Assembly: GCA_964599715.1 (NCBI GenBank)
Contig: CAZRGY010000003.1
Span: 1 to 32,962, forward strand
Reading direction: 5' to 3'
Length of the DNA: 32,962 nt
Origin: an uncultured Verrucomicrobiota bacterium
GTDB taxonomy: Bacteria > Verrucomicrobiota > Verrucomicrobiia > Limisphaerales > JAEYXS01
Position numbers and translations under genes: made by a program. This document shows, one piece after another, positions 73-31,412 of this stretch (the stretch's first letter is position 1; every line of letters starts with the position of its first letter). Below the pieces are notes generated by a model, which made no database searches, was not told the origin of the DNA, and worked only from the letters and a program-made list of their open reading frames with translations.

Positions 73-1275
73 TTACCGGAAGCGCTCCCACAGTTTGGTG
101 TAAGCTTTTACCAGTTCTGGCGTGGTACGAACGGATGTCTCGAGTTGCTTGTTCAAATGATCAAGCAGCTCTATGTCTTGATCCTTTATCTCTGTCCAAA
201 GCAACAAAGGCAATGTGTTCAAAAGCCTTTCACGCGGATACCGGAATGCGCCGCCCCCCTTGAATATCCCCTTCCGAAGGCGAATGAAGTTGATCGCCAA
301 GTTTTTCCACCATTTGGTTTCTGGACATTTATTCCGCTGGCAATACGCATATCCTCGGACCGTGCCAAAAGCGTCTCCCAAGCGGCGCCCTTCCAACCAA
401 AACCACACCTGCATGGCCAAATCTGAAAGCTCGATGAAGAGCGACTGACATTCCTTCTCGCTCATGTGATTTCGATGCGGATGCAGTTTGAACTCCACAC
501 CCAAAACATGATGCCGTTGGACCGCCGCCAGGCCCGGGAAGTCCGGAAGGGACAACAACTTCCTGACCCGCTCACCCCGCTCCACACAACTGCTATGATA
601 GCGCCCGCATACTGTCAGCAAGACATCCCCCAAGGCCAACTGCACTTTGGCCAGGTTTCGTTCTGCAAAATCAGTCTGCAGAGATCCCGATTGCAATCGC
701 TCCTTGATGAACAGCAACCCCGTGCAACGATTCATCAATAGACGCGTCGCTTCAGCCAATGGAATGCTTCCCGCGCTGAGATGATGTCGGCATTGGTTTA
801 ACAGATCCTCTTGACCGTAAAGCCATTTGTGCCCCACAGCCAGATCATGGTAAAACATGCTCGTCCCGCTCCGGCGAAACTTACCCAAGGACAGTATTTT
901 GAAATCGACATCGATACCGGCCCGTTCGCCCACCTCCACACCTAATCGTTGTAAAGCTACGCCATATTTTTCCTCATTGAGCCAGCTCACCCCGGAAAGA
1001 AAGATGTAAAATTCAAGATCGTTAAAAAGTGCATCGTGCCCCTTTTCATGCAAAACGCCTCCTTCTCCCCTTCCGTAACCACCGCCCAACAACACGGCCT
1101 GCAATTTCCCAGCCGGCACAAACTTGCCTAGCCCGGCCATGACCCATTGGCAGATTTGCCGGATTTGGTTTTCTATCTCTTTACTGCCATCCCTTGTGAA
1201 ATAATGTTCCGTCGATGAAACTGCCCCTTGAGTTTCGAACAATGGTTTGGTCAAGGATGAGTCTAAGGTTTCCAT
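73..1275 (-). CDS. Pol-beta-superfamily nucleotidyltransferase with GlnD/DUF294-like motif; target unknown
   Basis: 400-aa ORF. NTase signature LLGGGYGRGEGG ... FNDLEFYIF (hG[GS]...D-x-[DE]) with a further acidic residue in GIDVDF. The GGYGRGE string is the form I associate with GlnD/GlnE/DUF294-type protein nucleotidyltransferases. Its ATG (1275-1273) shares one base with the TAA (1277-1275) of the upstream GT2 gene (TAATG), implying translational coupling. Confidence 0.7.
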   Translation of the reverse strand: METLDSSLTKPLFETQGAVSSTEHYFTRDGSKEIENQIRQICQWVMAGLGKFVPAGKLQAVLLGGGYGRGEGGVLHEKGHDALFNDLEFYIFLSGVSWLNEEKYGVALQRLGVEVGERAGIDVDFKILSLGKFRRSGTSMFYHDLAVGHKWLYGQEDLLNQCRHHLSAGSIPLAEATRLLMNRCTGLLFIKERLQSGSLQTDFAERNLAKVQLALGDVLLTVCGRYHSSCVERGERVRKLLSLPDFPGLAAVQRHHVLGVEFKLHPHRNHMSEKECQSLFIELSDLAMQVWFWLEGRRLGDAFGTVRGYAYCQRNKCPETKWWKNLAINFIRLRKGIFKGGGAFRYPRERLLNTLPLLLWTEIKDQDIELLDHLNKQLETSVRTTPELVKAYTKLWERFR

Positions 1276-7713: not shown

Positions 7714-8919
7714 CTAAGCCGGAACTGCTTCAGCCTGCAGCTCTAGATGCGCAGCTTGATTGGCAGCCTTCGCAGCTCGGGCATCGCGCTCCATCAACTG
7801 ATAAACATGTGGTATGGCACTTATTCCTTCGGGTAATTCAGGTTGATTCGTGAATATGGAAGCAAAACTGTGCTTGTCATCAGGATGGTAACCATGCATG
7901 GCTCGGATAGGCCGCTCACCCATGTGGCTAGGAACAATCAGCACCCCCTCTTGCAGCAAGAAAATCAGCTCTCCGAATTGCCGATCCGGGAAAAAAGTGC
8001 CCAATTCAATCAATTCCTCATCGGTCATGATTTTGCCTTGCCGTATTGCTGACAATGCATTGGTCACCGCCCGCTTGGCCTGCTGATTGAAGAACCAGAA
8101 CCGCGCCATAGTGGAATCATAAACCACGGCATAGTCCTCCCCTATCTTCAGCGGTAATTTCTTTATGACTGATTGCAAATCTAGAAGTTCGTCGCAATTG
8201 GCCATGCCGTGATCACTAAAAACATATAGCCTGACCTCATCGTAGTTATCCTTCGCTACCTTCATCAATTTCTCCATCCGCAACTCGTAGCCTCTTAACT
8301 TCTCAGGCACTTGTGGGGATCGGTTGCCCACACGATGCATGAGTCCATCCAAGTCCGGCCAATACAGAAAAGCGAAATCAATGCTTTGCTTTTGGATATC
8401 CGCCAGCAGGTCATCCAGGTTCTGTAGTTCCGTCTTTTGCGGGCTGCTGACGTGATAGGCTATGCTTTCCTTATCTAGCACATCGAATATGTTCTGACCT
8501 TGATTCATCCCACCTGGTTGCAACGGACTTTTTTTCTCAGTGAAATCAAACAGCGAAATATGCTCGAACGGAATGTTGTATAAATCAAAGTAACCCTTGT
8601 ATCCCAACCGAAACCGCACGTACTTGCTTAACCAACGACGAAAGATTCTCCTGCCAGTCAGTGCCTTTGGCAACCAGCTCAGCTTCCGCAGAAACCGAAA
8701 CGGCGAGTTCACGGGATCGTACACAAAGTAACACCAGTTCCTGTGGTGAGAAGGCCATTTCCCGGATAAAATCGAAGGGATGCACGCTGAACTGTAGCCA
8801 AACACCGAAGCAAGCTTGTTACGCGTTGGGGCCAGTAGCTGCATGAACGGATCGTTCTTTACTATTTCCCAGCCACACGCATCGATAAATACAAACAAGG
8901 GTAATATTTTTTTCTTCAT
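7714..8919 (-). CDS. Alkaline-phosphatase-superfamily enzyme (type I phosphodiesterase/nucleotide pyrophosphatase-like)
   Basis: 401 aa. Metal-ligand Asp right at the N-terminus (LFVFIDACGWE), nucleophile region GYSSACIPSILSGKWPSHH, distal metal site VFSDHGM and AMHGYHP. No obvious signal peptide. Confidence 0.7.
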   Translation of the reverse strand: MKKKILPLFVFIDACGWEIVKNDPFMQLLAPTRNKLASVFGYSSACIPSILSGKWPSHHRNWCYFVYDPVNSPFRFLRKLSWLPKALTGRRIFRRWLSKYVRFRLGYKGYFDLYNIPFEHISLFDFTEKKSPLQPGGMNQGQNIFDVLDKESIAYHVSSPQKTELQNLDDLLADIQKQSIDFAFLYWPDLDGLMHRVGNRSPQVPEKLRGYELRMEKLMKVAKDNYDEVRLYVFSDHGMANCDELLDLQSVIKKLPLKIGEDYAVVYDSTMARFWFFNQQAKRAVTNALSAIRQGKIMTDEELIELGTFFPDRQFGELIFLLQEGVLIVPSHMGERPIRAMHGYHPDDKHSFASIFTNQPELPEGISAIPHVYQLMERDARAAKAANQAAHLELQAEAVPA

Positions 8920-8945: not shown

Positions 8946-9281
8946 TTAAACTAAGCCTTCGGCGGTATGCGCAGGACGTTTGACAATCTCAAAGATACGA
9001 TGCATACGAGTGAGCTCGATAACCTGCTGGACAGAAGTCTGCGGATTTAACAGTCGTAGCGGGACTTCGCCATGCCGGTTACATGCGGTCTTGTGCACGA
9101 GAAGCAAGGCACCAATCCCATGACTGTCCACGCGGTCAACCTCAGAAAAATCCACTTCGATTGCTTTCAACTCTGGCGACATCGCCGCCTGCACCTTCTC
9201 CCTAAAAAGACCGGCGTTAGCCGCGACAAGGTGTTTGACTTGGTTGACCGTTAGAATGCCATCTCGTTGTAGTATATTCAT
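8946..9281 (-). CDS. Single-domain STAS protein (anti-sigma-factor-antagonist-like, SpoIIAA/RsbV family)
   Basis: The track ORF extends to 9356 but would overlap the upstream gene by 61 nt. The internal ATG at 9281 (MNILQRDGILTV...) gives 111 aa. STAS pattern EVDFSEVDRVDSHGIGALLLV with Ser at the canonical phosphorylation position. Confidence 0.75.
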   Translation of the reverse strand: MNILQRDGILTVNQVKHLVAANAGLFREKVQAAMSPELKAIEVDFSEVDRVDSHGIGALLLVHKTACNRHGEVPLRLLNPQTSVQQVIELTRMHRIFEIVKRPAHTAEGLV

Positions 9282-9295
9282 ATCATCATGCTGTC

Positions 9296-10606
9296 CTAGC
9301 CCTGACCATCCAACTCTGGATACGGCTCCGGAACAGGAGCCTGAACTTTCATGCAAGAGCCTATTCCGTTAATAGACCGGATTATCACCACTTGGTAAAA
9401 AATAGAAAAATCGAGCTGCCAATCTCCCATCATTGAGTAATAGCAAGCATGTGCCCGCGCTCGATCGCCAAAAAGATCGATGCCTTTCTCAACATCTGCC
9501 AGTGATATCACTCCCATAGGCACTGCAAGCCATAGTTTCTCGTGCTCGTGCCCCAAATCTTCTACCTGTCGCGGTGTTAAAGGCCGATTTCCGATAAAGG
9601 CAAAGCGACCACAAACTGCTTCCCAAAGCTGTGGCCACCGCCTGACCCAGCCATAACGACTCGGCACCTCAAAATACCTCAGCACCCCGCCTGTTCGATC
9701 AAAACGCTTGGGACCTGGTATGACTGCGATTCTGGCATTCCAGTAAGGCCCGCCCTTGATAAGGGAATGAGCCATTGAAAAAAAGGCGAACGGCGCGATT
9801 CCGGTTAATATGAGGCCTGCCAAAATTCTTCCACCGATGGTTGCCGCCGGCCATTTATTTGCCGAATCATTCAAAGCGCTCAAAAGAAACTTATCGGCGA
9901 CTTTGACCGTAGCTCCATCAATCAGGCGTGTGAGTGTATCTGCCCACGCGATCGAGTCTTTGATATCCGTCCATTCACCGACCAAAGTTTCACTAAATAC
10001 GATGCTGTTACCAATCTCCGCACCTCGCTCAACACAAACGCGGTCTTCAATTATTGCCAGTGGCCCCACAACAGCATCCGCTTCAATCTTGACGTCATTG
10101 CCGATCCAACAAGGGGAAAGCAGTTTGACCGAAGCAGCCAAGGAAACATGCATACCTATCCAGACCCCCGGCGCCATCTCCTTCATCCCAACCCTAGCGG
10201 ATTCTGTCGCTTGCGACATCAATTGCAAAAGTGCTGCAAACCACGAGTTATAGTCTTCAAAAAGTTTACACCCAGGCAAAGAAGGCATGGAATCCATTAC
10301 TTCTACGCAATCCACTGGCCCAGCATTGGCGACAAACGATATGGCTTCTTCAATTCCCATCTCCCGGACAACTGGCCACACTTCAACCCTCACACCATAC
10401 TTTTGGCCCTCTACAACATAGGCTCGCACCATGTCCGGCCGGTCAGCAGCCAGGATCACAACCTCGGAAACTTTTCGGTCTGCCAAATGTTCCAGCCAAT
10501 AATCAATCAGAGGTTTTCCCAACATGGGCACCAAAACTAATGGCACGGAGTCATGGAGGCATGCCACCCCTAGACGTTCTCCCGGGCAGATCAAGATTGC
10601 CTTCAT
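9296..10606 (-). CDS. Fusion protein: NDP-sugar-pyrophosphorylase-like domain + left-handed beta-helix + membrane segment + degenerate (DE->RR) phosphoglycosyl-transferase-like domain
   Basis: ATG at 10606 (MKAILICPGERLG...), 1 nt after the upstream PGT stop. N-terminus is collinear with NTP_transferase (VPLVLVPMLGKPLIDYWLEHL...VVILAA). Hexapeptide-like repeats IGNDVKIEADAVVGPLAIIEDRVCVERGAEIGNSIV. Hydrophobic ILAGLILTGIAPFAFFSMA. C-terminus is collinear with bacterial sugar transferases (RRWPQLWEAVCGRFAFIGNRP versus DEFPQFYNVLLGDMSLVGPRP in the neighbour). Confidence 0.7.
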   Translation of the reverse strand: MKAILICPGERLGVACLHDSVPLVLVPMLGKPLIDYWLEHLADRKVSEVVILAADRPDMVRAYVVEGQKYGVRVEVWPVVREMGIEEAISFVANAGPVDCVEVMDSMPSLPGCKLFEDYNSWFAALLQLMSQATESARVGMKEMAPGVWIGMHVSLAASVKLLSPCWIGNDVKIEADAVVGPLAIIEDRVCVERGAEIGNSIVFSETLVGEWTDIKDSIAWADTLTRLIDGATVKVADKFLLSALNDSANKWPAATIGGRILAGLILTGIAPFAFFSMAHSLIKGGPYWNARIAVIPGPKRFDRTGGVLRYFEVPSRYGWVRRWPQLWEAVCGRFAFIGNRPLTPRQVEDLGHEHEKLWLAVPMGVISLADVEKGIDLFGDRARAHACYYSMMGDWQLDFSIFYQVVIIRSINGIGSCMKVQAPVPEPYPELDGQG

Positions 10607-10607
10607 T

Positions 10608-11321
10608 TCAGCAAGCTCCCTTTCTAAATAAAACCGCCGGGACAGTCTTGAACAGGATCTTGATGTCCCCCCAGAAACTCTGACTTTCGATATACTCCAC
10701 ATCCAACTTAACCTGCCCTTTGAAATCTATCTCACTTCTTCCTCCTATCTGCCAAAAACAAGTCAATCCGGGTTTGACGACCAGACGTCGCCGATCAGAG
10801 AACGTGTAGAGCATGACCTCTCTGGGCAAAGGCGGGCGCGGCCCAACCAAAGACATATCACCAAGTAAAACGTTGTAGAACTGGGGGAATTCATCGATCG
10901 AGAACATCCGCAACCACTTGCCAATTTTGGTCAACCGTGGATCATTTTTGAGCTTAAAAGTTACTCCCTCTTTATGCTGGTTACTTTCCAGAAGTGCCGT
11001 CAACCGGGCCTCGGCATCCAGGCACATAGAGCGGAATTTAAACAACTTGAACTCACGGCCATCTTTACCCACACGCGTTTGGCAGAAAAACACCGCCCCC
11101 CTGTCCTCCAGCATGATAAGCATTCCAACAATCAAGAAGAGAGGAGCCAAGAGTATCAACGCCATAAAGCTGATTACGACATCCAACAACCGCTTGCTTG
11201 CCTGCGGGCTATTAAGAAAATTCCGCCAGATTATTCGTCTCCACATGGCACAGAGTTTCGTGCGCCATCGGCCCAACGGATTCTGGGTCGCAGTAAATTG
11301 TTCAATCAGCATAGCGTTCAT
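10608..11321 (-). CDS. Polyprenyl-phosphate phosphoglycosyl transferase (bacterial sugar transferase family, initiating enzyme)
   Basis: 237 aa. N-terminal re-entrant/TM helix LLDVVISFMALILLAPLFLIVGMLIML. Canonical motifs GREFKLFKFRSM, SIDEFPQFYNVLLGDMSLVGPRP, KPGLTCFWQIGGRS, LDVEYI. Confidence 0.92.
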   Translation of the reverse strand: MNAMLIEQFTATQNPLGRWRTKLCAMWRRIIWRNFLNSPQASKRLLDVVISFMALILLAPLFLIVGMLIMLEDRGAVFFCQTRVGKDGREFKLFKFRSMCLDAEARLTALLESNQHKEGVTFKLKNDPRLTKIGKWLRMFSIDEFPQFYNVLLGDMSLVGPRPPLPREVMLYTFSDRRRLVVKPGLTCFWQIGGRSEIDFKGQVKLDVEYIESQSFWGDIKILFKTVPAVLFRKGAC

Positions 11322-11333
11322 AAGAGTTCAAAT

Positions 11334-12017
11334 TCAGTTGTTCCTGGCACAGGAGGATATCTTGCAAGCCACTTCTTTGCTCTTGATTCTGGCTTTCACT
11401 ATCGCTGCTAGTCGTAGTGCGTCTTGCTCGGTAACCGGGGATTGAATCAAGTGGTCTGCCCATTGGGTCTGTGGCTGAACATGGATCTCGTGCATGGGCA
11501 GAACGGTGGATGCAAATTGCGAAATGACTGCGCTTGGAGTACGTCCACGACTCATAACATCACGTTGCATGCGACGCCAGAAACGCAAATCAGCAGGACA
11601 GTCAATAAACACCTTCAAGTCGAAAAGTGAACGGAGTTCTGGGCGATGGAGCAACCAAAGCCCATCCACAACTACAATTGGTTTACAGCGCCAGACAGAG
11701 GATTTCTCAAACCGGCAGTGGGTCGTGAAATCATATCGTGGAATCTTAAGCGCCTCAGCGCCCTCCTGAAACTGTGTAAGCACCTGGGTTAACACCGGCC
11801 AATCAATCGCACTTGGGCTGTCAAAGTTGATCTGCGCCCGGTGTTCTGGCGCCAAGGGCGAAAGATCGCGATAAAAATCATCCAAGGAAAGGTTTGAAGC
11901 TTTTCTACCCAAGTTTGACCTTAACCGGTTCGCGAGCCAGGTTTTTCCAGAGCCGCTTCCACCAACAATCGCGACCACGCATACAGCCGAACTTTTTTTG
12001 ACGATAGTGTTCATCAT
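11334..12017 (-). CDS. udk: Uridine kinase homologue (PRK/uridine kinase family P-loop kinase)
   Basis: 227 aa, collinear with Udk as I remember it: P-loop VAIVGGSGSGKT, LSLDDFY, NFDSPSAID, IPRYDF..H.R, IVVVDGLWLL, VFIDCPADLRFWRRMQRDVMSRGRT, ISQFASTVLPMH. ATGA 4-nt overlap with the upstream GT4 stop (12014-12017). Confidence 0.7.
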   Translation of the reverse strand: MMNTIVKKSSAVCVVAIVGGSGSGKTWLANRLRSNLGRKASNLSLDDFYRDLSPLAPEHRAQINFDSPSAIDWPVLTQVLTQFQEGAEALKIPRYDFTTHCRFEKSSVWRCKPIVVVDGLWLLHRPELRSLFDLKVFIDCPADLRFWRRMQRDVMSRGRTPSAVISQFASTVLPMHEIHVQPQTQWADHLIQSPVTEQDALRLAAIVKARIKSKEVACKISSCARNN

Positions 12018-13450: not shown

Positions 13451-16093
13451 TCACTTGAGTTTTAAACCGGTCACTGAATTGGTGATGCCGTATATCCGTC
13501 TGCCATCCGGTAAAACAGCTTCGACCTCAATCCAGGCAGGCATTGAAGCCCCCGGAGTCAATGAGAGTGCCGATCGAAATGAGATTCCAGTGTCTGGCGT
13601 CTCCCAAACCATCCGTGCTTCCTTAAGGTCCACCTCTGGCGTTACCAGACGGGCTGCCGCTATGCCCGTTACCTTGTCCTTCGATATCTGTATTTGTCCG
13701 GTCGCAGCTTTCCACGACTGTTCTTTTTTGGCTGTCTTGCTCATCAAGAACGCTGCCGCCGCCAACGCACGCGCTTGATTAACAATTACGAATTCCGTTT
13801 GAACATTGAAGCTGTCACCCCAGCGATCGTAGATGGGATATGGCTGATTTCCTGAACCATCCGGTGGAAAAGTCAAAGCTCCCAGCTCCTGCTTGTAGAA
13901 ATCCAGCCAGCCAAAGCCTCCTTGCAGATTGCCGACCGGAATACCGCTAGGCGGCAAAACGCGACGGTCATTCTGGGCGAAATGGTGAACGATCTCTTGC
14001 GGCCGCTTAAATCCAAGCCCCGTCACAAAGCAGACATTCACTGGATTGCATCCCAACTCATAGTTGAAGTTTGCAAGCAAGGCATCTAAGAATTTAGGGC
14101 GTAAGTCTCGATTTACAGGATAGTCCAACTGGCAGCCGACGGCCAGATCAAAGGCCGCACCCGAGGAGAAGTACCACCCCGCGCTGCGAACACGTTTTGT
14201 TTCCACGGGGAAGCTAGTTCCATAAGCGCTCTGCAGCGAACGCCGCAATTGATCTTCCGCACCTGCGGCGACTTCATTCTCGCAGCCGCGAACCATCAGT
14301 TCATCCAATTGTTTCCCTTGAAGCCGGCCACTTTTATGGGCGAATGCGTAACTTCTGGCCGCATTGCCATAGCCATCGTACAAGCGCCACCAGCCCCATT
14401 TGCGGGTCGCAGGGTCATCTGGATGATACCACTCGAGAAACCTCCCGTGATACTTTGCTTCTCCAGTGGCCAAAAACATCTCACATGCCGCCCAAGCCAG
14501 TTCGTCATCATGCATGAAGTCGTTCCCATAGTGGGTGATCTTTTGATAAGCACCATCCTTGCCGTGGAGCGCGATGGCCCGCTCAAGGAAAGCCCAGCCC
14601 GACCGCGCTTTCTGGAGGTATGCCTTGGCTTCTTCTGGGAACTGTTTCTGAAAGAGTGGTGAGGAACTGATCTGGGCCAGCGCCGCGACTGCGGCAGCGG
14701 TGGCGGCAGTTGTTTTCGGCCACACGATCTGGGTGTCGCCAAAGTCGGGCAGCACATTGTGTTCGTAGCGGCGTTCACGCGGGTATACGAGAAAATAGAA
14801 ACCGCCATCGTCATCCTGCATTTTGGCGAGGAATTCCGCTTCCCAGTTCGCCTTCTGCAAGAGATCGCTCAGTTTGTCACCACTCTCCGGCAGGCCCAGA
14901 TTGTCCAACTCACCTGCGCCGGGAAACACATCAACAGCAAAAACAAGATGGTGAATGAAGGCGGCACTGTTGATGGTGTATTTGCTATAATCCCCTGCAT
15001 CATGGTGACCTTTCGAAACATCAATGCTGCCATGTTTAACAAATGGATACAGGCTTGAGGCGAAATCTTTCATCACCGGTGCGGTATGGCGCTGGTTTTT
15101 AGTAGCGTCCGCCGACTCTTCTCGCAGGAACTTCTGTGTATTGGTGAAGAAAGCGGTGGGAATCTCAGCCAACGCCTGATGACAGACCGCATGGGTGAAG
15201 CGTGTAAACGGTAGCGCATTGCTGTCACCACAACGCTGGTGATAAATACCCAGTGCGTAAGTCCGAGCGAGCAACGCCGGATACCCTTCGTTGATGAAGA
15301 ATGGATATGAAACTCCCAATCCATCCACCGCCAGGCGATACTCCCCAGTTTTTGTGAAACTTGAAAAATCCGCTTCGAATACTTGTTGGTAACAAGGAAA
15401 GGGAAAGCCTTGATCCCGGTGAAAGGTCATTTGACTCTCGAAGACTACCGTTTTGCAATCAGCTGATAGCAACTTGAATTTCCCCTCAGGCGGCAAATTA
15501 AGTTCCCCCATACTCCCAAGATAGAATCCCACCATGGCTTTTTTTGACAATTGAGGAGCATAGCCCGCTTGATTCACATGAATCGCTTCACTCAGCCGGA
15601 AAGGGTCGTTTGTGACAAAAAGAAACTGCTCTTTCTTCCATAGGGTCGCGGGGATACTCTTAACCTCAATGACTTGTCCGCTTTCGACAGTTTTCTCCAG
15701 TTGCAAATAGAGATAGTTGCCAATTCGCAGGTCACGCACCTTGAGGGGGGCAAAAAGCACGCGCCGTTTGAAGCCAACTCCGGTGATGCCAGCTGATTGC
15801 CCATCGGCCAGCACCACGAAATCGGTCACCACTGGCAATCGTAGCATCCCCGAAGTATCGACCAAGTCCCAGTCTGGCAACGGCAAATTGAGTTCTTTCG
15901 AGTTGACATAACTGAGCTCCAGCAAATTGGACGAAACTAACTGGAGTGAATAATCTCCTATGACTGGCAACCGGTAATGGTCATCACGAACCCCTTCGGC
16001 AGACAACGACAAGACCAGCCATAGAAGGCTAAAACTGGCAATAAGACTTGAATTCACCGACCTTGCATAACACGCAAGCCAGTGTTCGCCCAT
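13451..16093 (-). CDS. Secreted Ig-like (CelD_N-type) + divergent glycoside hydrolase family 9 protein
   Basis: The track ORF starts at TTG 16171. The first ATG is 16093 (MGEHWLACYARSVNSSLIASFSLLWLVLSLSAEG, signal-peptide-like) and gives 880 aa. GH9 hallmark HHDAGDYSKY at 14990-15007. (alpha/alpha)6-type strings HDDELAWAA, WGWWRLY. Candidate acid Glu in FNVQTEFVIVNQA. Paralogous to aa ~915-1757 of the giant protein. Confidence 0.8.
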   Translation of the reverse strand: MGEHWLACYARSVNSSLIASFSLLWLVLSLSAEGVRDDHYRLPVIGDYSLQLVSSNLLELSYVNSKELNLPLPDWDLVDTSGMLRLPVVTDFVVLADGQSAGITGVGFKRRVLFAPLKVRDLRIGNYLYLQLEKTVESGQVIEVKSIPATLWKKEQFLFVTNDPFRLSEAIHVNQAGYAPQLSKKAMVGFYLGSMGELNLPPEGKFKLLSADCKTVVFESQMTFHRDQGFPFPCYQQVFEADFSSFTKTGEYRLAVDGLGVSYPFFINEGYPALLARTYALGIYHQRCGDSNALPFTRFTHAVCHQALAEIPTAFFTNTQKFLREESADATKNQRHTAPVMKDFASSLYPFVKHGSIDVSKGHHDAGDYSKYTINSAAFIHHLVFAVDVFPGAGELDNLGLPESGDKLSDLLQKANWEAEFLAKMQDDDGGFYFLVYPRERRYEHNVLPDFGDTQIVWPKTTAATAAAVAALAQISSSPLFQKQFPEEAKAYLQKARSGWAFLERAIALHGKDGAYQKITHYGNDFMHDDELAWAACEMFLATGEAKYHGRFLEWYHPDDPATRKWGWWRLYDGYGNAARSYAFAHKSGRLQGKQLDELMVRGCENEVAAGAEDQLRRSLQSAYGTSFPVETKRVRSAGWYFSSGAAFDLAVGCQLDYPVNRDLRPKFLDALLANFNYELGCNPVNVCFVTGLGFKRPQEIVHHFAQNDRRVLPPSGIPVGNLQGGFGWLDFYKQELGALTFPPDGSGNQPYPIYDRWGDSFNVQTEFVIVNQARALAAAAFLMSKTAKKEQSWKAATGQIQISKDKVTGIAAARLVTPEVDLKEARMVWETPDTGISFRSALSLTPGASMPAWIEVEAVLPDGRRIYGITNSVTGLKLK

Positions 16094-16179
16094 GAGGGTA
16101 TCACCCCAGATAGGTTCTGTATTTGTGCGGGCGGTAGCTTGATTTGAACGATGGTCGCGCCATGCAACCAAGGCGCTGG

Positions 16180-16251: not shown

Positions 16252-19200
16252 TTAAATGGTCATGTATACTAAGTAGAAGCGCTGCGCAAAATAGCTTGCA
16301 TCATTGTCCAGCCAGCTTGTGGTCGTACCTGTGGCCTGAATATCATCGCTCAATTGGACCCAATCTGCGTCTGTCAGATTACTTTTACCAAGCACACGGT
16401 AGGTCTTTCCAGCAACACTGCTCCAGGCGATGCGCTGTGCGCTTCCCTCGGGTCGAACGGTAGTGCTGGAAACCGCGTTCCCTGTTATTGCGATATCGGC
16501 ATTGCCAGAAGTGCCAACAGTATATGCTGCTTCGACCATCAAGGACATCGTCGCGGTCCTAATGCCGGTAATACCGGCAACCGCAGCCGGGATCAAAGTG
16601 ACTGTGGCCGAGGCACTGCCAACCGGAATCGTCACTGTGGCCGGTAGCAAGCCGTAGTCTGTGCCGTTCACTGCGGTACCACCATAGGTCACGTTCACCG
16701 TAAGAGCCGCAATGGTGCTCCCGGTCCGGGTGAGGGTAAAGACACCCGGATCCGCCCCTGCTTGCGAAGCAGTAGGATCGGTCGCGATTACGCTAACCGA
16801 GGGTAGAGCAATAGCATTGTCGTTGTCATAGAGATAAACGGTGGCGGTGTTCTCTGAGCCGAGGTTGTAGGTCGCATCTGCCTGGATGGTCAGAATGGCC
16901 GTCTCAGTGACTTCCTCCTCGGCATCATCCACGGCATAGATGGTTAGTGTAACCGTCTGGGCACCCGCCGGAATGATGATAGATTCCGGCATATCACCTT
17001 GCGCACGGCGGAAATCACTCCATTTACCGGCGGTTCCACTGAACTTGTAGTTTACGGTCAGTGCCGAACTCGTGTTACCCGTGCGCGTGAAGGTGTAGTA
17101 GGCGGTATCTTCGCCTTCGGTGGCGCCAGGATCAGTCGCGACAACACTAACGGTCGGCAGGCTGTTCGTGGCGAAGAAGCTTATCGCAGCCACGGCCCGG
17201 CGGCCATCGGGCCATTGCGCTTCGGCTTCCACCCATTGGTCACCGTAGCTGACCGGGTGGAAGGTGAAGGTGCTGCCGTATGCAGGTTCTTGATCGCGGG
17301 CTTCCCAGGCTATGCGAGCACCGTTCAGATCAAGGCCATCTACCTGCATGGTAGCGGTGATGAGGCCATTCGTGCCGATTTCCGTGGGCACACCGATGAT
17401 CCGAGCGGTAGTGGACTTCCATGGCTGCGTCTTCGTGGCTGTCAACGTGGCGAGGTAGGCGATGCTGGCGATGCCGCGAGCCTGGGCAACGGCCACGAAC
17501 TCGGTGGTCACGTTGAAGTTATCCGCCCAACGGTCATAGAAGGGGTAGGGAGCCGTGCCGGCATCGTCGGAAGGGAAGGTCAGGGCGGTCAGCTCAGAAC
17601 CGTAGTTCTCAGAGTAGTTGAAACCACCCTGGATATTCCCAATCGGAATACCAGCGGGCGGCATGACGCGGCGGTCGCTCTGCGCATATTGATGAACGAT
17701 CTCGCGCTGGCGTTTCCAGCCCATGCCCGTCAGATAGCTGACGTTGACCGGGTTGTTGCCCGCTTCATAGTTCAGGTTGGCGAGGATGGCATCCAGATAC
17801 TCGGCTCTGGGCGTGATCTGCTGGGCCACCGCGATATCGAAGGCCTGTTCGTTGGAGAAGTACCAGCCTGCGCCGCGAACGCGTTTGGTCGCATCCGGGA
17901 AGCTGCTGCCATAGGCGCCTTGATTCGACCAGAGGAGCGCGTCGTTACCGCCGGCGATGATCTGGGCTTCACATTTGGCGAGATAAGCGGCGTTCAACTG
18001 GCCCGAGGTCAGGCGACCACTACGGGCGGCAAAGGCGTAACTACGGATGGCGTGGCCATAGGAGCCATACAAACGCCACCAGCCCCAGCGGAAGGTCGCG
18101 GCGTTGCTAGGGTCGGGGAACCATTCGGCCAGCTTTTGCTGATATTGGCTTTCACCGGTGGCGGCGAACATCTCGGCTGCGGCCCAGGCCAGTTCGTCAT
18201 CATGGCGATAGTCGTCACCGTAGTGGGTGATTTTCTGGTAGGCGCCGTCTTTGCCGTAGCGGGCAATGGCAGTCGTGAGGAATTGCCAGCCCAGCCTGGC
18301 TTGCTGCAAGTAGGCGGCAGCGGCCACAGGGTACGCCTGCTTGAAGCGCGGTGATGAAGCAGTTTGGGCGAGGGCGGCCACGGCGGCCGCCGTAGAGGCG
18401 GTGGTCTTGGGCCAGACCACCTGGGCATCACCATGGTCCGGTTGCGTGCCGCTCTCGTACTCGCGCTCGCGGGGGTAAACGAGGAAGTAGAAACCCCCAT
18501 CAGTGTCCTGGAGCTTGGCCACATAGTCAGCTTCCCATTTGGCCGCTTGCATCAGATCGCTGATGCCGTCACTGCTTTCGGGGACACCGAGGTTATCCAA
18601 GGCAGCCACACCCGGGATGGAATCCACGGCGAACATCAGGTAATGGATCAGATTGGCGCTGTTGATCGTGTATTTGCTGTAGTCACCGGCATCATGATGA
18701 CCGCCCGAAAGGTCCAAGGCTCCCGTTTTCACGAACGGATAGAGCTGGGCAGCCGGACTGGTCAGCAAAGGAGCTGTTTGCGCCGGATTATCCACGTTCG
18801 CTTTCATGGCGTAGTTGGAGATCGTGGTCCAGGTGAACTGGAACGAGGATGAAGGCATCGGCACACTGACCAGTGCATGATGGCAGTTTTCATGGGTATG
18901 ACGGGTGAAGGGCATGACATTGTTGGTGCCGCAGCGCTGGTGATACAAGCCCAGGGCATAAGCGCGGGTGAAGCCCATCGCGACGCCCTCATCGATCATA
19001 AATGGCAGCGAGGCACCAAGACCGGGAACCATCAATTGATATTCACCGGGAGTGGTAAAGCTGGTGAAGTCCGCTTCCAAGACCTTCTGGTAAGGTGTCG
19101 GGCTGTAGGAATAACCGACATCGGCGCGGACTTTGAGGGTCCCTTGATACACGGAGACACCACTATGGATGTTCACGAGGGAGAAGCCCAAGGAACTGGC

Positions 19201-23930: not shown

Positions 23931-23941
23931 AAACCTTACGA

Positions 23942-25462: not shown

Positions 25463-25473
25463 GGAAATAGTTC

Positions 25474-29983: not shown

Positions 29984-30254
29984 CAAAGTCTCTGAGCTCT
30001 TTTTATTTCCTTTAACCTCTCCGGAATTGGCACCAGCCGAACTAGAGTAGAATCACAGAAGCTTGCACTCACAGTAGGTGATGACCTCACACTTAGTTAA
30101 AATGCACCGCAGCTTTTCAATCTCCTCGCACTCAACCCGCAATTTCGGCGGGTAAAGGCCTGATAACAGTTCAATCCGCGTTGACGCATCCTGAGACACG
30201 CTAGTCTGGCGGATTTCAGACGAGTCTATTGTAAAGCTTAATTTATTGAACACT
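29984..30254. promoter_or_regulatory. Divergent intergenic region (ABC/regulator/export train versus GT26-STAS operon)
   Basis: 271 bp between divergent ATGs 29983 (minus) and 30255 (plus). Contains a GC-rich 6-bp hairpin ACCCGC/GCGGGT at 30135-30153 and a questionable 74-codon ORF (30053-30277, minus). Confidence 0.4.
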
Positions 30255-31412
30255 ATGGCCAGGTTTCCTTTTGTCATTTGTGGCGTTCCCTTTGATCAGG
30301 TAACGATGGATGAATCTGTGGCCATAGTTCAGCAGATGATCGCCTCAAAGCGCCCCCATCACGTTGTCACTGCAAATGTCGATTTCCTCGTTCAATCTCT
30401 TGCCGACAGGGATCTCCACCGAATTTTTCTTCATGCACATCTTCTCCTTTGTGATGGCACCCCGCTTATTTGGGCTTCACGTTTCTTAGGGAATCCACTG
30501 CCGGAAAGAGTGGCAGGAGCTGACCTTGCACCTAAGCTGATCAAACTGGCGGAAGAAAAGAAATACCGGATCTACTTACTCGGTGGCAGCTACGAATCAA
30601 ATACTGCCGCAGTAAGAAAGCTGAAGCAGGACCATCCAAACCTGATCATAGCTGGAAATCATTCCCCTCCCTTCGCACCACTGTCCAGCATGGATCATGC
30701 AGACATTTGTAAACGCATACGACTGGCCAAGCCTGATATCCTGCTGGTTTCATTCGGGTGCCCAAAACAAGAAAAATGGATTGCCAGGCACCATCGAACA
30801 TTGGGAGTACCTGTTTCGATCGGAGTCGGTGCTGTCATAGATTTCTTCGCCCAGAGGGTAAAAAGAGCTCCAGTGTGGATGCAACGGTCCGGGACAGAGT
30901 GGATATTCCGTCTCTTACAAGAACCGAAGCGTCTATTCCGGCGTTATTTAGTCGACCTTTATTGTATCAGTTTCGCGATAATATCAGAACAATGGCATAT
31001 CATTACCAGAACCTCTCCGCCGATTGATCCGTTGCAAGAACTGTTGATCGAAAAAGAACTTCAGTGGCACCGGGTACAAACCCCAAATCGATTGGATTCC
31101 AACTCGATTCAAACTAATTCAGCTATCTGGCACAACATACGTGGGCGTAATTATGTGCTAGACTTGGAAAATGTCGGTTTCATTGATGGCGTAGGCGTAG
31201 GGTTGTTAATCCGATTGCACCACCGATTAAAACAGGAAGGCCACATGCTCCTGCTTTCACGAGCCTCAAAAGTGGTCTGTGCAACACTTAACAGAAGACG
31301 GCTAAATGAGCATTTCAACATGGTTCAAAATGATTTTGAGGCCAGTCAAGCAATTGCAAATCACCGTCGTGGACAGAATCTCCCCTCAATAGAGACCCCA
31401 GAATTGAACTGA
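30255..31412 (+). CDS. WecB/TagA/CpsF-family (GT26) glycosyltransferase fused to a C-terminal STAS domain
   Basis: The track start 30246 is TTG. ATG at 30255 (MARFPFVICGVPFD). GT26 motifs HVVTANVDFLVQ, LLLCDGTPLIWASRFLG, YLLGG, ILLVSFGCPKQEKWI, GVGAVIDFFAQRVKRAPVWMQRSGTEWIFRLLQEPKRL. STAS-like tail at about 31038-31361 (NYVLDLENVGFIDGVGVGLLIRLHHRLKQEGHMLLLS). Confidence 0.8.
   Translation: MARFPFVICGVPFDQVTMDESVAIVQQMIASKRPHHVVTANVDFLVQSLADRDLHRIFLHAHLLLCDGTPLIWASRFLGNPLPERVAGADLAPKLIKLAEEKKYRIYLLGGSYESNTAAVRKLKQDHPNLIIAGNHSPPFAPLSSMDHADICKRIRLAKPDILLVSFGCPKQEKWIARHHRTLGVPVSIGVGAVIDFFAQRVKRAPVWMQRSGTEWIFRLLQEPKRLFRRYLVDLYCISFAIISEQWHIITRTSPPIDPLQELLIEKELQWHRVQTPNRLDSNSIQTNSAIWHNIRGRNYVLDLENVGFIDGVGVGLLIRLHHRLKQEGHMLLLSRASKVVCATLNRRRLNEHFNMVQNDFEASQAIANHRRGQNLPSIETPELN

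What the first reader, a model, noticed from the sequence alone, without database searches (positions are those of the whole stretch)
9296..10606. Catalytically dead phosphoglycosyl-transferase copy fused to a sugar-nucleotide-binding-like module, next to the real initiating PGT
The protein strings together three modules that are normally separate.
(i) An NDP-sugar pyrophosphorylase fold (KAILICPGERLG...VPLVLVPMLGKPLIDYWLEHL...VVILAA), where the canonical G-x-G-T-R-L loop reads CPGERLG.
(ii) A hexapeptide left-handed beta-helix.
(iii) A hydrophobic segment followed by a region collinear with the neighbouring bona fide PGT: LRYFEV versus FKFRSM, RRWPQLWEAVCGRFAFIGNRP versus DEFPQFYNVLLGDMSLVGPRP, PMGVISL versus PGLTCFW.
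In monotopic PGTs such as PglC, the Asp-Glu of the DE(L/F)PQ motif is the catalytic dyad. Here it is Arg-Arg (codons at about 9629-9643), and the KFRSM motif is lost.
The gene starts 1 nt after the real PGT stop and ends 14 nt before a free STAS gene.
This looks like a pseudo-enzyme that could sense an NDP-sugar or sugar-phosphate pool and dock onto or gate the active PGT, that is, a dedicated regulator of the committed step. I know of no characterised example of this architecture.
Basis: partly seen in the sequence, partly recalled or inferred. Interest (0 to 1): 0.78.

Follow-up and report, generated by a model that had tools for sequence, protein, structure and literature searches.

The report
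Dead enzyme fusion beside sugar-chain starter
This gene encodes a membrane-anchored protein built from three enzyme-like modules that have all lost their catalytic residues; it is always encoded next to the enzyme that starts exopolysaccharide synthesis and to a phospho-switch (STAS) protein, so it is most likely the uncharacterised adaptor through which a partner-switching signal turns polysaccharide initiation on or off.

Summary
Window 9296-10606 (-) encodes a 436-aa protein with three modules:
- a truncated NDP-sugar-pyrophosphorylase-like domain (aa 1-140);
- a left-handed beta-helix (aa 141-245);
- a complete but degenerate monotopic phosphoglycosyl-transferase (PGT) domain (aa 254-420).

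The re-entrant helix and its proline kink are kept. KFRSM and the DPRxT segment are lost. Arg-Arg sits where Asp-Glu should be. None of 309 relatives or 80 species-level loci has Asp-Glu. No acidic residue is invariant in the PGT-like domain.

The pseudo-enzyme status and the tie to the true PGT are strong. A PGT lies directly upstream in 65 of 72 loci, with a 1-nt gap here. NDP-sugar sensing is not supported for this shortened N-domain.

- A STAS gene with a conserved phospho-serine follows in 69 of 78 loci.
- An RsbW-type kinase/PP2C phosphatase gene follows in 53 of 69 loci.
- In Rubritalea marina and three metagenomic relatives, STAS is fused to this protein.
- The same gene set, plus WecG-STAS, recurs in Chloroflexota, including a Chloroflexus aurantiacus-type locus.

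About 990 clusters at 50% identity match; I found no study of the family.

Best reading: a catalytically inert adaptor that couples STAS phosphorylation to the initiating PGT.

The parts
9296..10606 (-). Whole gene: 436-aa pseudo-NTase / LbH / pseudo-PGT fusion protein (P0001)
   Evidence: ORF. The start is fixed by the homologue alignment and by the junction sequence. AF2 model mean pLDDT is 84.2.
10187..10606 (-). aa 1-140: truncated, degenerate sugar-nucleotidyltransferase-like Rossmann domain. The signature loop reads CPGERL, Leu23 replaces the catalytic Lys, and a conserved G-x-R-W-G motif is present.
   Evidence: NCBIfam Arch_glmU 2e-15 over aa 1-94. Alignments to tlr0611 and ST0452, with about 110 fewer residues than tlr0611 between the N-terminal block and the beta-helix. 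Invariant residues. Secondary structure from the model. Fold matches to GMPPA/B, eIF2B epsilon/gamma and MurU.
9872..10186 (-). aa 141-245: left-handed beta-helix (hexapeptide repeats) of the GMPPB_C / eIF2B-LbH type. No His appears among its conserved residues.
   Evidence: Hexapep 1e-7 and LbH_EIF2B 2.6e-4. Beta-strand ladder with pLDDT 91-97. Invariant and nearly invariant residues listed.
9758..9847 (-). aa 254-283: hydrophobic helix-break-helix, a re-entrant membrane helix with conserved Pro272 that corresponds to the Ser23-Pro24 kink of PglC.
   Evidence: HMMER aligns the family consensus 'LlltlPll' to PglC 'LILTSPII'. Model helices H257-269 and H271-283. P272 is nearly invariant.
9347..9847 (-). 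aa 254-420: complete but catalytically degenerate monotopic PGT (Bac_transf) domain
   Evidence: PDB profile hits: WbaP 1e-17 and PglC 9e-17 over PglC residues 10-187. hhalign against 74 true PGTs: probability 98.7%. Foldseek match to PglC 8e37_A with TM-score 0.59.
9638..9643 (-). Codons for Arg322-Arg323, which sit where the catalytic Asp-Glu dyad lies in true PGTs
   Evidence: Translation. HMMER alignment to PglC D93-E94. Family survey: no Asp-Glu in 309 proteins or 80 loci. At least 68 of 74 neighbouring PGTs carry DE(L/F/V)PQ.
10608..11321 (-). Bona fide small monotopic PGT (237 aa; KFRSM and DEFPQ intact), 1 nt upstream and probably translationally coupled
   Evidence: Bac_transf 2.8e-66. 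EPS_sugtrans 2.9e-83. A PGT is adjacent in 65 of 72 loci.
8946..9281 (-). Single-domain STAS protein (111 aa), 14 nt downstream. Its phospho-acceptor Ser53 lies in VDSHGIG (codon 9123-9125).
   Evidence: STAS 3.5e-12. ant_ant_sig 9e-11. The Ser is conserved in 92 of 94 STAS homologues. A STAS gene is adjacent in 69 of 78 loci. Natural fusions to the pseudo-enzyme are shown.
7714..8919 (-). Cytoplasmic type I phosphodiesterase / nucleotide pyrophosphatase family protein, a conserved downstream member of the operon
   Evidence: Phosphodiest 6.4e-17. Present downstream in 45 of 60 loci.
11334..12017 (-). PRK / uridine-kinase family P-loop kinase, a conserved upstream member of the operon
   Evidence: PRK 1.3e-33. 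Present upstream in 51 of 67 loci.
30246..31412 (+). WecG/TagA-family glycosyltransferase with a C-terminal STAS domain. The equivalent gene lies next to the pseudo-enzyme in the Chloroflexota and Rubritalea loci.
   Evidence: Glyco_tran_WecG 1.7e-63 plus STAS 1.6e-7. Contexts L086, L088 and L089. tblastn hits.

Best explanation
The protein is a catalytically inert, membrane-anchored adaptor. It descends from a sugar-nucleotidyltransferase/LbH protein fused to a duplicated monotopic PGT.

Proposed mechanism:
- Its re-entrant helix places it on the cytoplasmic face of the membrane beside the small PGT. The two are co-translated (1-nt gap).
- Its soluble part is the docking surface for the neighbouring STAS protein.
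- The phosphorylation state of STAS Ser53 is set by an RsbW-type Ser kinase and a PP2C (SpoIIE) phosphatase. In this genome these must be encoded outside the window.
- That state decides whether STAS is bound, and binding switches the initiating PGT step on or off after translation. The WecG-type second step may be switched as well.
- By analogy with SypA and All4160, I predict that unphosphorylated STAS means polysaccharide synthesis is ON.

Shown here:
- domain homologies;
- family-wide loss of catalytic residues in both enzyme-like domains;
- retention of the membrane helix;
- conserved operon structure across two phyla;
- natural STAS fusions;
- the conserved phospho-Ser.

Inferred:
- physical binding to STAS and to the PGT;
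- the direction of regulation;
- oligomerisation through the beta-helix.
For: (1) Pseudo-enzyme status.
- Arg-Arg, or (K/Q/S/H/Y)-Arg, sits at the dyad site in all 309 family proteins and all 80 species loci. Asp-Glu never occurs.
- The KF(R/K)(S/T)M motif and the DPRxT...LR segment, about 25-37 aa, are deleted.
- Across short and long forms, the invariant residues of the PGT-like domain are only Leu, Gly and Pro, with no acidic residue.
- The N-domain has lost its glycine loop, its catalytic Lys and about 110 residues.
- No His is among the invariant or nearly invariant residues of the LbH.

(2) Membrane anchoring.
- The proline-kinked re-entrant helix is retained.

(3) Coupling to the PGT.
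- A true PGT ends 0-30 nt upstream in nearly all of the 65 of 72 loci that have one adjacent, and 1 nt upstream here.

(4) Coupling to STAS and the partner switch.
- STAS is adjacent in 69 of 78 loci, and a HATPase_c_2-GAF-SpoIIE gene in 53 of 69.
- The phospho-Ser is conserved in 92 of 94 STAS homologues.
- STAS is fused in-frame to the C-terminus in P0055, P0064, P0091 and P0097.
- In Rubritalea marina the fused form takes the place of the free STAS gene in the same operon.

(5) Cross-phylum conservation.
- The set PGT, WecG-STAS, pseudo-enzyme, STAS, SpoIIE, HATPase_c_2 and REC recurs in Chloroflexota.

(6) Precedents.
- The STAS-PGT fusion All4160 is switched by a kinase and the phosphatase HenR (PMC13555669).
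- SypA, a STAS protein, controls Syp polysaccharide production at an unknown level (PMC11112999).
- EpsW activates the PGT EpsZ by direct interaction (PMC12802240).
- The non-catalytic pyrophosphorylase paralogue GMPPA regulates GMPPB (PMC11228364). GMPPA/B and eIF2B epsilon/gamma are among the top fold matches.
Against: - I could run no interaction test. The session's structure tool predicts single chains only and returns no coordinates.
- The 33-kb window holds no HATPase_c_2 kinase or SpoIIE phosphatase, so in this genome the switch enzymes are only assumed to lie elsewhere.
- Short forms lack the pseudo-PGT domain yet occupy the same operon slot. The pseudo-PGT part is therefore dispensable in some lineages, which weakens the idea that it heterodimerises with the PGT.
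- One subclade has no adjacent PGT and carries a glycogen phosphorylase instead.
- Gene adjacency and fusion show a functional link, not its sign or mechanism.
- The conserved variant signature ATGE(T/S)xKL(R/Q)P in the long Chloroflexota forms leaves room for ligand binding there.
Confidence: 0.55

Rival explanations
1. One reading: a metabolite-sensing pseudo-enzyme. The N-terminal pyrophosphorylase-like domain still binds an NDP-sugar, NTP or sugar-1-phosphate. It passes the state of the pool allosterically to the PGT, as GMPPA does for GMPPB. STAS is secondary.
For: - The fold resembles GMPPA/GMPPB and other NTase-LbH proteins.
- Arg11, the G-x-R-W-G motif and Asp105 are conserved in the N-domain.
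- Long Chloroflexota forms keep a full-length NTP_transferase domain with a conserved variant signature.
- Nucleotide- and sugar-phosphate-handling genes are conserved neighbours: the PRK-family kinase, the Phosphodiest gene and, in one subclade, glycogen phosphorylase.
Against: - In this protein the domain is only about 140 aa. The glycine loop is two residues shorter, the catalytic Lys is Leu, and the sugar-binding lobe is absent.
- A conserved acidic residue in the loop would disfavour phosphate binding. This is inference.
- The model does not explain the STAS fusions or the conserved kinase/phosphatase.
Confidence: 0.17
2. A purely structural scaffold or assembly factor. The inert protein organises the PGT, the WecG-type transferase and later enzymes into a membrane complex, possibly oligomerising through the beta-helix, without acting as a switch. 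STAS domains serve only as attachment modules.
For: - Tight operon coupling with the PGT.
- STAS domains are appended to WecG and sometimes to this protein.
- The window's WecG-STAS has Gly at the phospho-Ser position, FIDGVGVG, so at least that STAS cannot be phospho-regulated.
- No kinase or phosphatase lies in this window.
Against: - The phospho-Ser of the free STAS is conserved in 92 of 94 homologues.
- A dedicated kinase/phosphatase gene is present in 53 of 69 loci. Both argue for a regulated interaction rather than a static one.
Confidence: 0.2
3. A still-active enzyme with non-canonical chemistry, for example a PGT that uses another nucleophile or an acyl- or nucleotidyl-transferase acting on the lipid-linked sugar. 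This would be analogous to known bifunctional PGT fusions.
For: - NCBI annotates relatives as 'sugar transferase' or 'nucleotidyl transferase'.
- Strong purifying selection acts on GNRP, WPQLW and E356 within Verrucomicrobiota.
Against: - No acidic residue is invariant in the PGT-like domain once long forms are included.
- The Asp-Glu dyad, the KFRSM motif and the DPRxT segment are all missing.
- No His is among the conserved residues of the LbH.
- A separate intact PGT is almost always encoded next door.
Confidence: 0.05

Closest known systems
All4160 / HenR / Alr3423 of Anabaena PCC 7120, and XssP of Synechocystis: STAS-domain PGTs controlled by a partner-switching-like module (PMC13555669)
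   Same: - A STAS domain with a phosphorylatable Ser, an RsbW-type Ser kinase and a SpoIIE-type phosphatase act on the Bac_transf step of a polysaccharide pathway.
- STAS is physically joined to a Bac_transf-fold domain. The STAS-fused relatives P0055, P0064, P0091 and P0097 mirror this arrangement.
   Different: - In cyanobacteria STAS is fused N-terminally to an active PGT.
- Here the Bac_transf-fold partner is catalytically dead and carries an extra pseudo-NTase plus LbH module. The active PGT is a separate small protein. STAS is usually free, or fused at the C-terminus.
- The authors state that STAS + Bac_transf proteins are rare outside cyanobacteria.
SypA / SypE of Vibrio fischeri (a STAS-only protein and a bifunctional kinase/phosphatase in the syp polysaccharide locus)
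   Same: - A free STAS gene and a single bifunctional RsbW-kinase/PP2C protein are encoded inside a polysaccharide locus. SypE carries a central REC domain; the protein here carries GAF.
- Regulation acts below the level of transcription.
   Different: - How SypA acts is still unknown.
- From my own recollection of its gene content, the syp locus contains no pseudo-NTase/pseudo-PGT protein. I did not test this here.
GMPPA (non-catalytic paralogue that regulates GMPPB) and the eIF2B gamma/epsilon subunits
   Same: - An NTase-like Rossmann domain followed by a short left-handed beta-helix, used as a non-catalytic regulatory or scaffolding subunit.
- These are among the top structural matches.
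   Different: - They are eukaryotic, soluble and full-length NTase folds. GMPPA still binds GDP-mannose (PMC11228364).
- Here the fold is truncated, and it is fused to a membrane-embedded pseudo-PGT.
PglC / WbaP monotopic phosphoglycosyl transferases (PF02397)
   Same: - The whole fold, including the proline-kinked re-entrant membrane helix, the (W/L)PQ(L/F) helix and the G-x-R-P motif.
- Profile E-values of 1e-17 to 9e-17.
   Different: - No Asp-Glu dyad, no KFRSM motif, and the DPRxT...LR segment is deleted.
- The single-sequence score is below Pfam's gathering cut-off.
EpsW-EpsZ of Myxococcus xanthus (PMC12802240)
   Same: A small phospho-regulated signalling protein controls exopolysaccharide output by acting directly on the initiating monotopic PGT.
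   Different: - The regulator is a single-domain response regulator.
- The PGT is a large WbaP-type enzyme.
- No pseudo-enzyme adaptor is involved.

Membership tests
Monotopic phosphoglycosyl transferase (Bac_transf, PF02397; PglC/WbaP) | Sequence or profile homology to the catalytic domain over its full length | tested here: met
   - Family profile against the PDB: WbaP 1e-17 and PglC 9e-17, covering PglC residues 10-187.
- hhalign against 74 true PGTs: probability 98.7%.
- Foldseek match to PglC with TM-score 0.59.
- The single sequence alone scores 24.1 bits, below Pfam's gathering score of 27.
Monotopic phosphoglycosyl transferase (Bac_transf, PF02397; PglC/WbaP) | Re-entrant membrane helix with a Ser/Thr-Pro kink | tested here: met
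   - The family consensus 'LTxP' aligns to PglC 'LTSP'.
- P272 is nearly invariant.
- The model shows helix 257-269, a break, then helix 271-283.
Monotopic phosphoglycosyl transferase (Bac_transf, PF02397; PglC/WbaP) | Catalytic Asp-Glu dyad immediately before the (L/F)PQ helix | tested here: not met
   - This protein has Arg322-Arg323 there.
- No Asp-Glu occurs in 309 relatives or 80 loci.
- hhalign scores the dyad as deleted.
- Neighbouring true PGTs carry DE(L/F/V)PQ in at least 68 of 74 cases.
Monotopic phosphoglycosyl transferase (Bac_transf, PF02397; PglC/WbaP) | KF(R/K)(S/T)M motif and the DPRxT...G..LR segment | tested here: not met
   Both alignments show a 24-37 residue gap in the family at this position, and no KFRSM-like motif is present.
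Monotopic phosphoglycosyl transferase (Bac_transf, PF02397; PglC/WbaP) | Phospho-sugar transfer to polyprenol phosphate | not testable with these tools
   Needs a biochemical assay.
Sugar-1-phosphate nucleotidyltransferase (NTP_transferase, PF00483) | G-x-G-(T/E)-R-(L/M) glycine-rich signature loop | tested here: not met
   The family consensus I-C-P-(A/G)-(E/D)-R is two residues shorter than LAAGSGER or LAAGKGTR in the aligned active enzymes. Only the Arg is retained.
Sugar-1-phosphate nucleotidyltransferase (NTP_transferase, PF00483) | Catalytic Lys about 10 residues after the loop (the ...PK... motif) | tested here: not met
   Nearly invariant Leu23 aligns with that Lys in tlr0611 and ST0452.
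Sugar-1-phosphate nucleotidyltransferase (NTP_transferase, PF00483) | Full-length fold of about 230-250 aa, including the sugar-binding lobe | tested here: not met
   - Query positions 76-125 span what is residues 96-255 in tlr0611, so about 110 residues are missing.
- In the model the LbH begins at residue 141.
- The Pfam score is 19.0, below the cut-off of 21.2.
Left-handed beta-helix / hexapeptide-repeat proteins (PF00132) | Hexapeptide repeats forming an LbH | tested here: met
   - Hexapep scores 31.8 bits, above the cut-off of 27.
- The model shows a regular short-strand ladder over residues 141-245 with pLDDT 91-97.
Left-handed beta-helix / hexapeptide-repeat proteins (PF00132) | Acyltransferase catalytic His | tested here: inconclusive
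   No His is among the invariant or nearly invariant LbH residues. No structure-based active-site comparison was possible.
Partner-switching system (STAS + RsbW-type kinase + PP2C phosphatase) | STAS protein with the conserved phospho-acceptor Ser | tested here: met
   - The window STAS gene 8946-9281 carries VDS53HGIG.
- The Ser is conserved in 92 of 94 homologues.
Partner-switching system (STAS + RsbW-type kinase + PP2C phosphatase) | Cognate HATPase_c_2 kinase and SpoIIE phosphatase | tested here: inconclusive
   - None is found in this 33-kb window.
- One is present directly downstream in 53 of 69 related loci, and in the Chloroflexota and Rubritalea loci.
Partner-switching system (STAS + RsbW-type kinase + PP2C phosphatase) | Phosphorylation-dependent exchange of binding partners, with this protein as a partner | not testable with these tools
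   Only indirect evidence is available: in-frame STAS fusions.

The most novel reading that the evidence does not exclude
A previously unrecognised protein family conserved across two phyla, with about a thousand clusters at 50% identity. Both enzyme-derived domains are dead. The family would be the output subunit of a partner-switching system acting directly on the first membrane steps of polysaccharide assembly, the PGT and the WecG-type transferase. This would be the first dedicated regulatory subunit of a monotopic PGT derived from a PGT duplicate. It would also be a concrete example of what STAS-only proteins bind when they control polysaccharide output without sigma factors.
Probability: 0.4. 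Interest if true: 0.8.

Novelty: new variant of a known kind. Interest (0 to 1): 0.68.

Why it matters
How bacteria throttle the committed, lipid-carrier-consuming first step of polysaccharide synthesis after transcription is largely open. The only examples I found are very recent: EpsW-EpsZ (2025) and All4160/HenR (2026). For STAS-only regulators such as SypA, the level at which they act is still unknown.

This family offers a testable candidate for the missing link in two large phyla. It is an inert, PGT-derived membrane adaptor that nature sometimes fuses to STAS.

It also flags a systematic annotation error. Hundreds of these proteins are labelled 'sugar transferase' or 'nucleotidyl transferase', yet they lack the catalytic residues of both. 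That can mislead pathway reconstruction and PGT substrate-prediction networks.

Cultured carriers make genetics and biochemistry feasible: Rubritalea marina, Haloferula sargassicola, Oscillochloris and a Chloroflexus aurantiacus-type organism.

Tried and rejected
- **Alternative start at 10702.** I rejected it. It would overlap the PGT by 95 nt, and all homologues begin at MKA(I/L)LICP.
- **Search for relatives with an intact dyad.** I looked for any relative that keeps Asp-Glu, which would suggest an active ancestor or a local mutation. None turned up among 190 + 119 proteins and 80 genome loci. A few long forms have Asp at the first position (DR, DH, DQ) but never Glu at the second.
- **Decaying pseudogene.** I rejected this. 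The gene is conserved at 33-55% identity in 80 species-level genomes, with 30 invariant residues.
- **Loci without a neighbouring PGT.** I checked whether the fusion in these loci (L039, L053, L057, L074) regains the dyad. It does not; the sequence is KRWPEL.
- **Literature.** Searches for a described pseudo-PGT or an NTase-PGT fusion found nothing.
- **Residue mapping.** HMMER and hhalign disagree on whether Arg-Arg substitutes for Asp-Glu or Asp-Glu is deleted. I report both readings.
- **Structure prediction of a natural STAS-fused form.** I did not do this. The tool returns no coordinates or PAE, so a docking site could not be read.
- **PRK-family kinase and Phosphodiest genes.** I did not pursue their functions.
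Full report
**1. What is at the coordinates**

The minus-strand ORF 9296-10702 contains the gene described. All 31 aligned homologues begin at MKA(I/L)LICP, which fixes the start at 10606 and the length at 436 aa.

The upstream gene 10608-11321 ends ...TTG C TGA. One base follows, and then the ATG. The stop TAG is followed by 14 nt and then the ATG of a 111-aa STAS gene. Codons 9638-9643 read Arg-Arg within GWVRRWPQLWEAVCG.

**2. Are the three modules real?**

Single-sequence scans already show all three:
- Hexapep at 1e-7, above the cut-off.
- Bac_transf at 2.9e-5, covering only HMM positions 91-174 and scoring below the cut-off.
- NTP_transferase at 1e-3, below the cut-off.
- NCBIfam Arch_glmU at 2e-15 over aa 1-94.

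Family profiles make the result decisive. A profile of the C-terminal domain, built from 23 sequences that include distant relatives (A2), hits WbaP (8t53) at 1e-17 and PglC (8e37) at 9e-17. The match covers PglC residues 10-187, essentially the whole enzyme. Profile-profile alignment against 74 true PGTs taken from neighbouring genes gives probability 98.7%, E 2.9e-16 and 155 aligned columns.

The AlphaFold2 model has mean pLDDT 84. It shows three parts:
- a small alpha/beta domain (aa 1-135);
- a beta-helix (aa 141-245);
- a helix-break-helix (aa 257-283) followed by an alpha/beta domain.

Foldseek matches the N-terminal two-thirds to a cyanobacterial UDP-glucose-pyrophosphorylase-like protein (8x7s), to GMPPA/GMPPB, to VTC1 and to eIF2B epsilon/gamma. 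It matches the C-terminal third to PglC with a TM-score of 0.59 normalised to the target.

**3. Is it catalytically dead?**

*PGT-like domain.*
- HMMER aligns the family consensus l-R-R-l-P-Q-L-w-n-v to PglC L-D-E-L-P-Q-L-F-N-V. This places Arg-Arg on the Asp93-Glu94 dyad.
- hhalign instead pairs Arg-Arg with the preceding LR(K/M) and scores xSxDE as a five-residue deletion. Under either alignment no acidic pair precedes the (W/L)PQ helix.
- Both alignments also show that the KF(R/K)(S/T)M motif and the following DPRxT...G..LR segment, 24-37 residues, are missing.
- The proline-kinked re-entrant membrane helix is retained. The family reads LTxP and PglC reads LTSP, and Pro272 is nearly invariant.
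- The G-(N/P)-R-P motif is also retained.
- None of 190 relatives, 119 long-form relatives or 80 species-level genomic loci has Asp-Glu at this site. Verrucomicrobial forms have (R/K/Q/S/A)-R there. Chloroflexota forms have mostly H-R or Y-R.
- Once long forms are included, the invariant residues of the domain are only Leu, Gly and Pro. No alternative conserved carboxylate exists.
- The neighbouring true PGTs carry DE(L/F/V)PQ in at least 68 of 74 cases.

*N-terminal domain.*
- Against active enzymes (tlr0611 reads LAAGKGTR; ST0452 reads LAAGSGER), the family loop I-C-P-(A/G)-(E/D)-R is two residues shorter.
- The catalytic Lys is the nearly invariant Leu23.
- Only about 50 residues span what is about 160 residues in tlr0611, so the sugar-binding lobe is absent.

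*Beta-helix.* No His is among its invariant or nearly invariant residues.

I conclude that the protein is a double pseudo-enzyme with a retained membrane anchor.

**4. Family and distribution**

A word-indexed search found about 40 relatives, all from Verrucomicrobiota MAGs. The exhaustive profile search found 990 clusters at 50% identity with E<=1e-30.

A scan of GTDB species representatives returned 83 loci. Nearly all come from Verrucomicrobiota: Pedosphaera, Opitutaceae, Limisphaerales, Chthoniobacter, Prosthecobacter and the cultured Haloferula sargassicola.

A second, longer form (460-600 aa, with a full-size NTP_transferase domain) is abundant in Chloroflexota. It occurs in Anaerolineae, Ardenticatenaceae, Caldilineaceae, Oscillochloris and a Chloroflexus aurantiacus-type protein.

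Sources label these proteins 'sugar transferase', 'nucleotidyl transferase', 'NDP-sugar pyrophosphorylase family protein', 'STAS domain-containing protein' or 'hypothetical'. No NCBIfam or Pfam model covers the family as such. Literature searches found no description of it.

**5. Genomic context: the key result**

The window is a Wzx/Wzy-type exopolysaccharide locus. It contains:
- two GT2 genes, a methyltransferase, Wzy, several GT4 genes and DUF2334;
- two GH9 genes, two Wza-like genes and a Wzz-like gene;
- a LuxR-type response regulator and an ABC transporter;
- a WecG-STAS fusion.

Around the target, the order GT4, PRK-family kinase, PGT, target, STAS, Phosphodiest is conserved.

Counts over the 80 species loci:

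| Neighbour | Position relative to the target | Loci |
|---|---|---|
| True PGT | ends within 100 nt upstream, same strand (mostly 0-30 nt) | 65 of 72 |
| STAS gene | within 350 nt downstream | 69 of 78 |
| ~630-aa HATPase_c_2-GAF-SpoIIE protein | downstream of STAS | 53 of 69 |
| PRK-family kinase | upstream | 51 of 67 |
| Phosphodiest | downstream | 45 of 60 |

The HATPase_c_2-GAF-SpoIIE protein combines an RsbW-type Ser kinase with a PP2C phosphatase. The STAS phospho-acceptor Ser, in the motif DS[SCH]GLG, is kept in 92 of 94 homologues. In the window it is Ser53.

Four relatives carry the STAS domain fused in-frame to the C-terminus of the pseudo-enzyme (P0055, P0064, P0091, P0097). In the cultured Rubritalea marina the operon reads PGT, pseudo-enzyme-STAS fusion, HATPase_c_2-SpoIIE, REC, Phosphodiest. 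There is no free STAS gene, and a WecG-STAS gene lies divergently upstream. This is a classic Rosetta-stone indication that STAS and the pseudo-enzyme work together physically.

In Chloroflexota the long form sits in the order PGT, WecG-STAS-STAS, pseudo-enzyme, STAS, GAF-SpoIIE, HATPase_c_2, REC. The association therefore spans two phyla.

There are exceptions:
- Short forms lack the pseudo-PGT domain but occupy the same operon slot.
- One subclade reads PRK, pseudo-enzyme, glycogen phosphorylase, STAS, STAS, with no adjacent PGT.
- This window itself carries no kinase or phosphatase gene.

**6. Mechanism**

The best-supported reading is an inert, membrane-anchored adaptor that links a STAS-based phospho-switch to the initiating PGT, and perhaps also to the WecG-type second transferase.

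Shown: homology, loss of catalytic residues, a retained membrane helix, conserved operon structure, natural STAS fusions and a conserved phospho-Ser.

Inferred: direct binding to STAS and the PGT, oligomerisation through the beta-helix, and the sign of the switch. For the sign, I predict that unphosphorylated STAS means ON, by analogy with All4160 (PMC13555669).

Several precedents make this plausible:
- All4160 is a STAS-PGT fusion switched by the kinase Alr3423 and the phosphatase HenR.
- EpsW activates the PGT EpsZ by direct interaction.
- GMPPA is a non-catalytic pyrophosphorylase paralogue that regulates GMPPB.
- SypA is a STAS-only protein that controls Syp polysaccharide production at an unknown level.

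It lacks support for this truncated N-domain and is more plausible for the long Chloroflexota forms.

**7. Novelty and verdict**

Partner-switching-like control of a PGT was first shown in 2026 for cyanobacterial STAS-PGT fusions. Its authors considered that architecture rare outside cyanobacteria.

The present family is a different solution. The active PGT is separate, and a PGT-derived pseudo-enzyme fused to a pseudo-pyrophosphorylase accompanies STAS. I class it as a new variant of a known kind of system, built around a component with no characterised precedent.

The functional model still needs interaction and activity tests. Interest: 0.68.

Noticed in passing
window 30246-31412 (+): A WecG/TagA-family glycosyltransferase carries a C-terminal STAS domain. 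Here the phospho-acceptor position is Gly (FIDGVGVG). Orthologues in L057, L086, L088 and L089 keep Ser (FIDSTG or FLDSSA), and the Chloroflexota versions carry two STAS domains.
   Followed up: partly
window 11334-12017 (-) and 7714-8919 (-): A PRK/uridine-kinase-family P-loop kinase and a cytoplasmic type I phosphodiesterase/nucleotide-pyrophosphatase flank the PGT, pseudo-enzyme and STAS core. They are conserved in 51 of 67 and 45 of 60 loci respectively. Their role is unknown; candidates are UMP/UDP-sugar turnover or polymer modification.
   Followed up: partly
window 13451-16171 (-) and 16252-22443 (-): Two GH9 (CelD_N + Glyco_hydro_9) proteins, one of them 2063 aa, lie inside the polysaccharide biosynthesis locus. 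GH9 genes recur next to the module in many related loci, which hints at a beta-glucan-like polymer or a processing glycanase.
   Followed up: no
window 22821-24044 (-) and 23942-25477 (-): Two tandem Wza-like genes (Poly_export + SLBB) have ORFs that overlap by about 100 nt. The start of the downstream gene is probably further in than the listed ATG.
   Followed up: no
window 73-1275 (-): A 400-aa ORF at the edge of the locus has no Pfam match at E<=1e-4.
   Followed up: no
L039, L053, L057, L074, L076, L081: In one subclade the pseudo-enzyme follows the PRK-family kinase directly, with no PGT adjacent. It is followed by a glycogen/carbohydrate phosphorylase (831 aa) and two STAS genes. This suggests the adaptor can be wired to a different sugar-phosphate enzyme.
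   Followed up: partly
L004 8001-8861; L005 8001-8897: Short forms (284-298 aa) keep the pseudo-NTase and LbH modules but lack the pseudo-PGT domain entirely. They still sit between the PGT and the STAS or Phosphodiest gene.
   Followed up: partly
L006 and L008 (same MAG, CALRJY02); L046, L052, L009, L018: The closest genome carries two paralogous copies of the whole PGT, pseudo-enzyme, STAS and Phosphodiest cassette. Several MAGs that carry this Verrucomicrobia-type locus are labelled 'Chitinophaga pinensis', 'Akkermansia muciniphila', 'Cyanophyceae' or 'Candidatus Acidoferrum'. These labels are probably taxonomic mislabelling or bin contamination.
   Followed up: no
many loci, e.g. L043, L051, L052, L055, L056: Two STAS genes in tandem follow the pseudo-enzyme, one with DSSG and one with DS(E/D)G at the phospho-site. 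This suggests two antagonist-type proteins in the switch.
   Followed up: no
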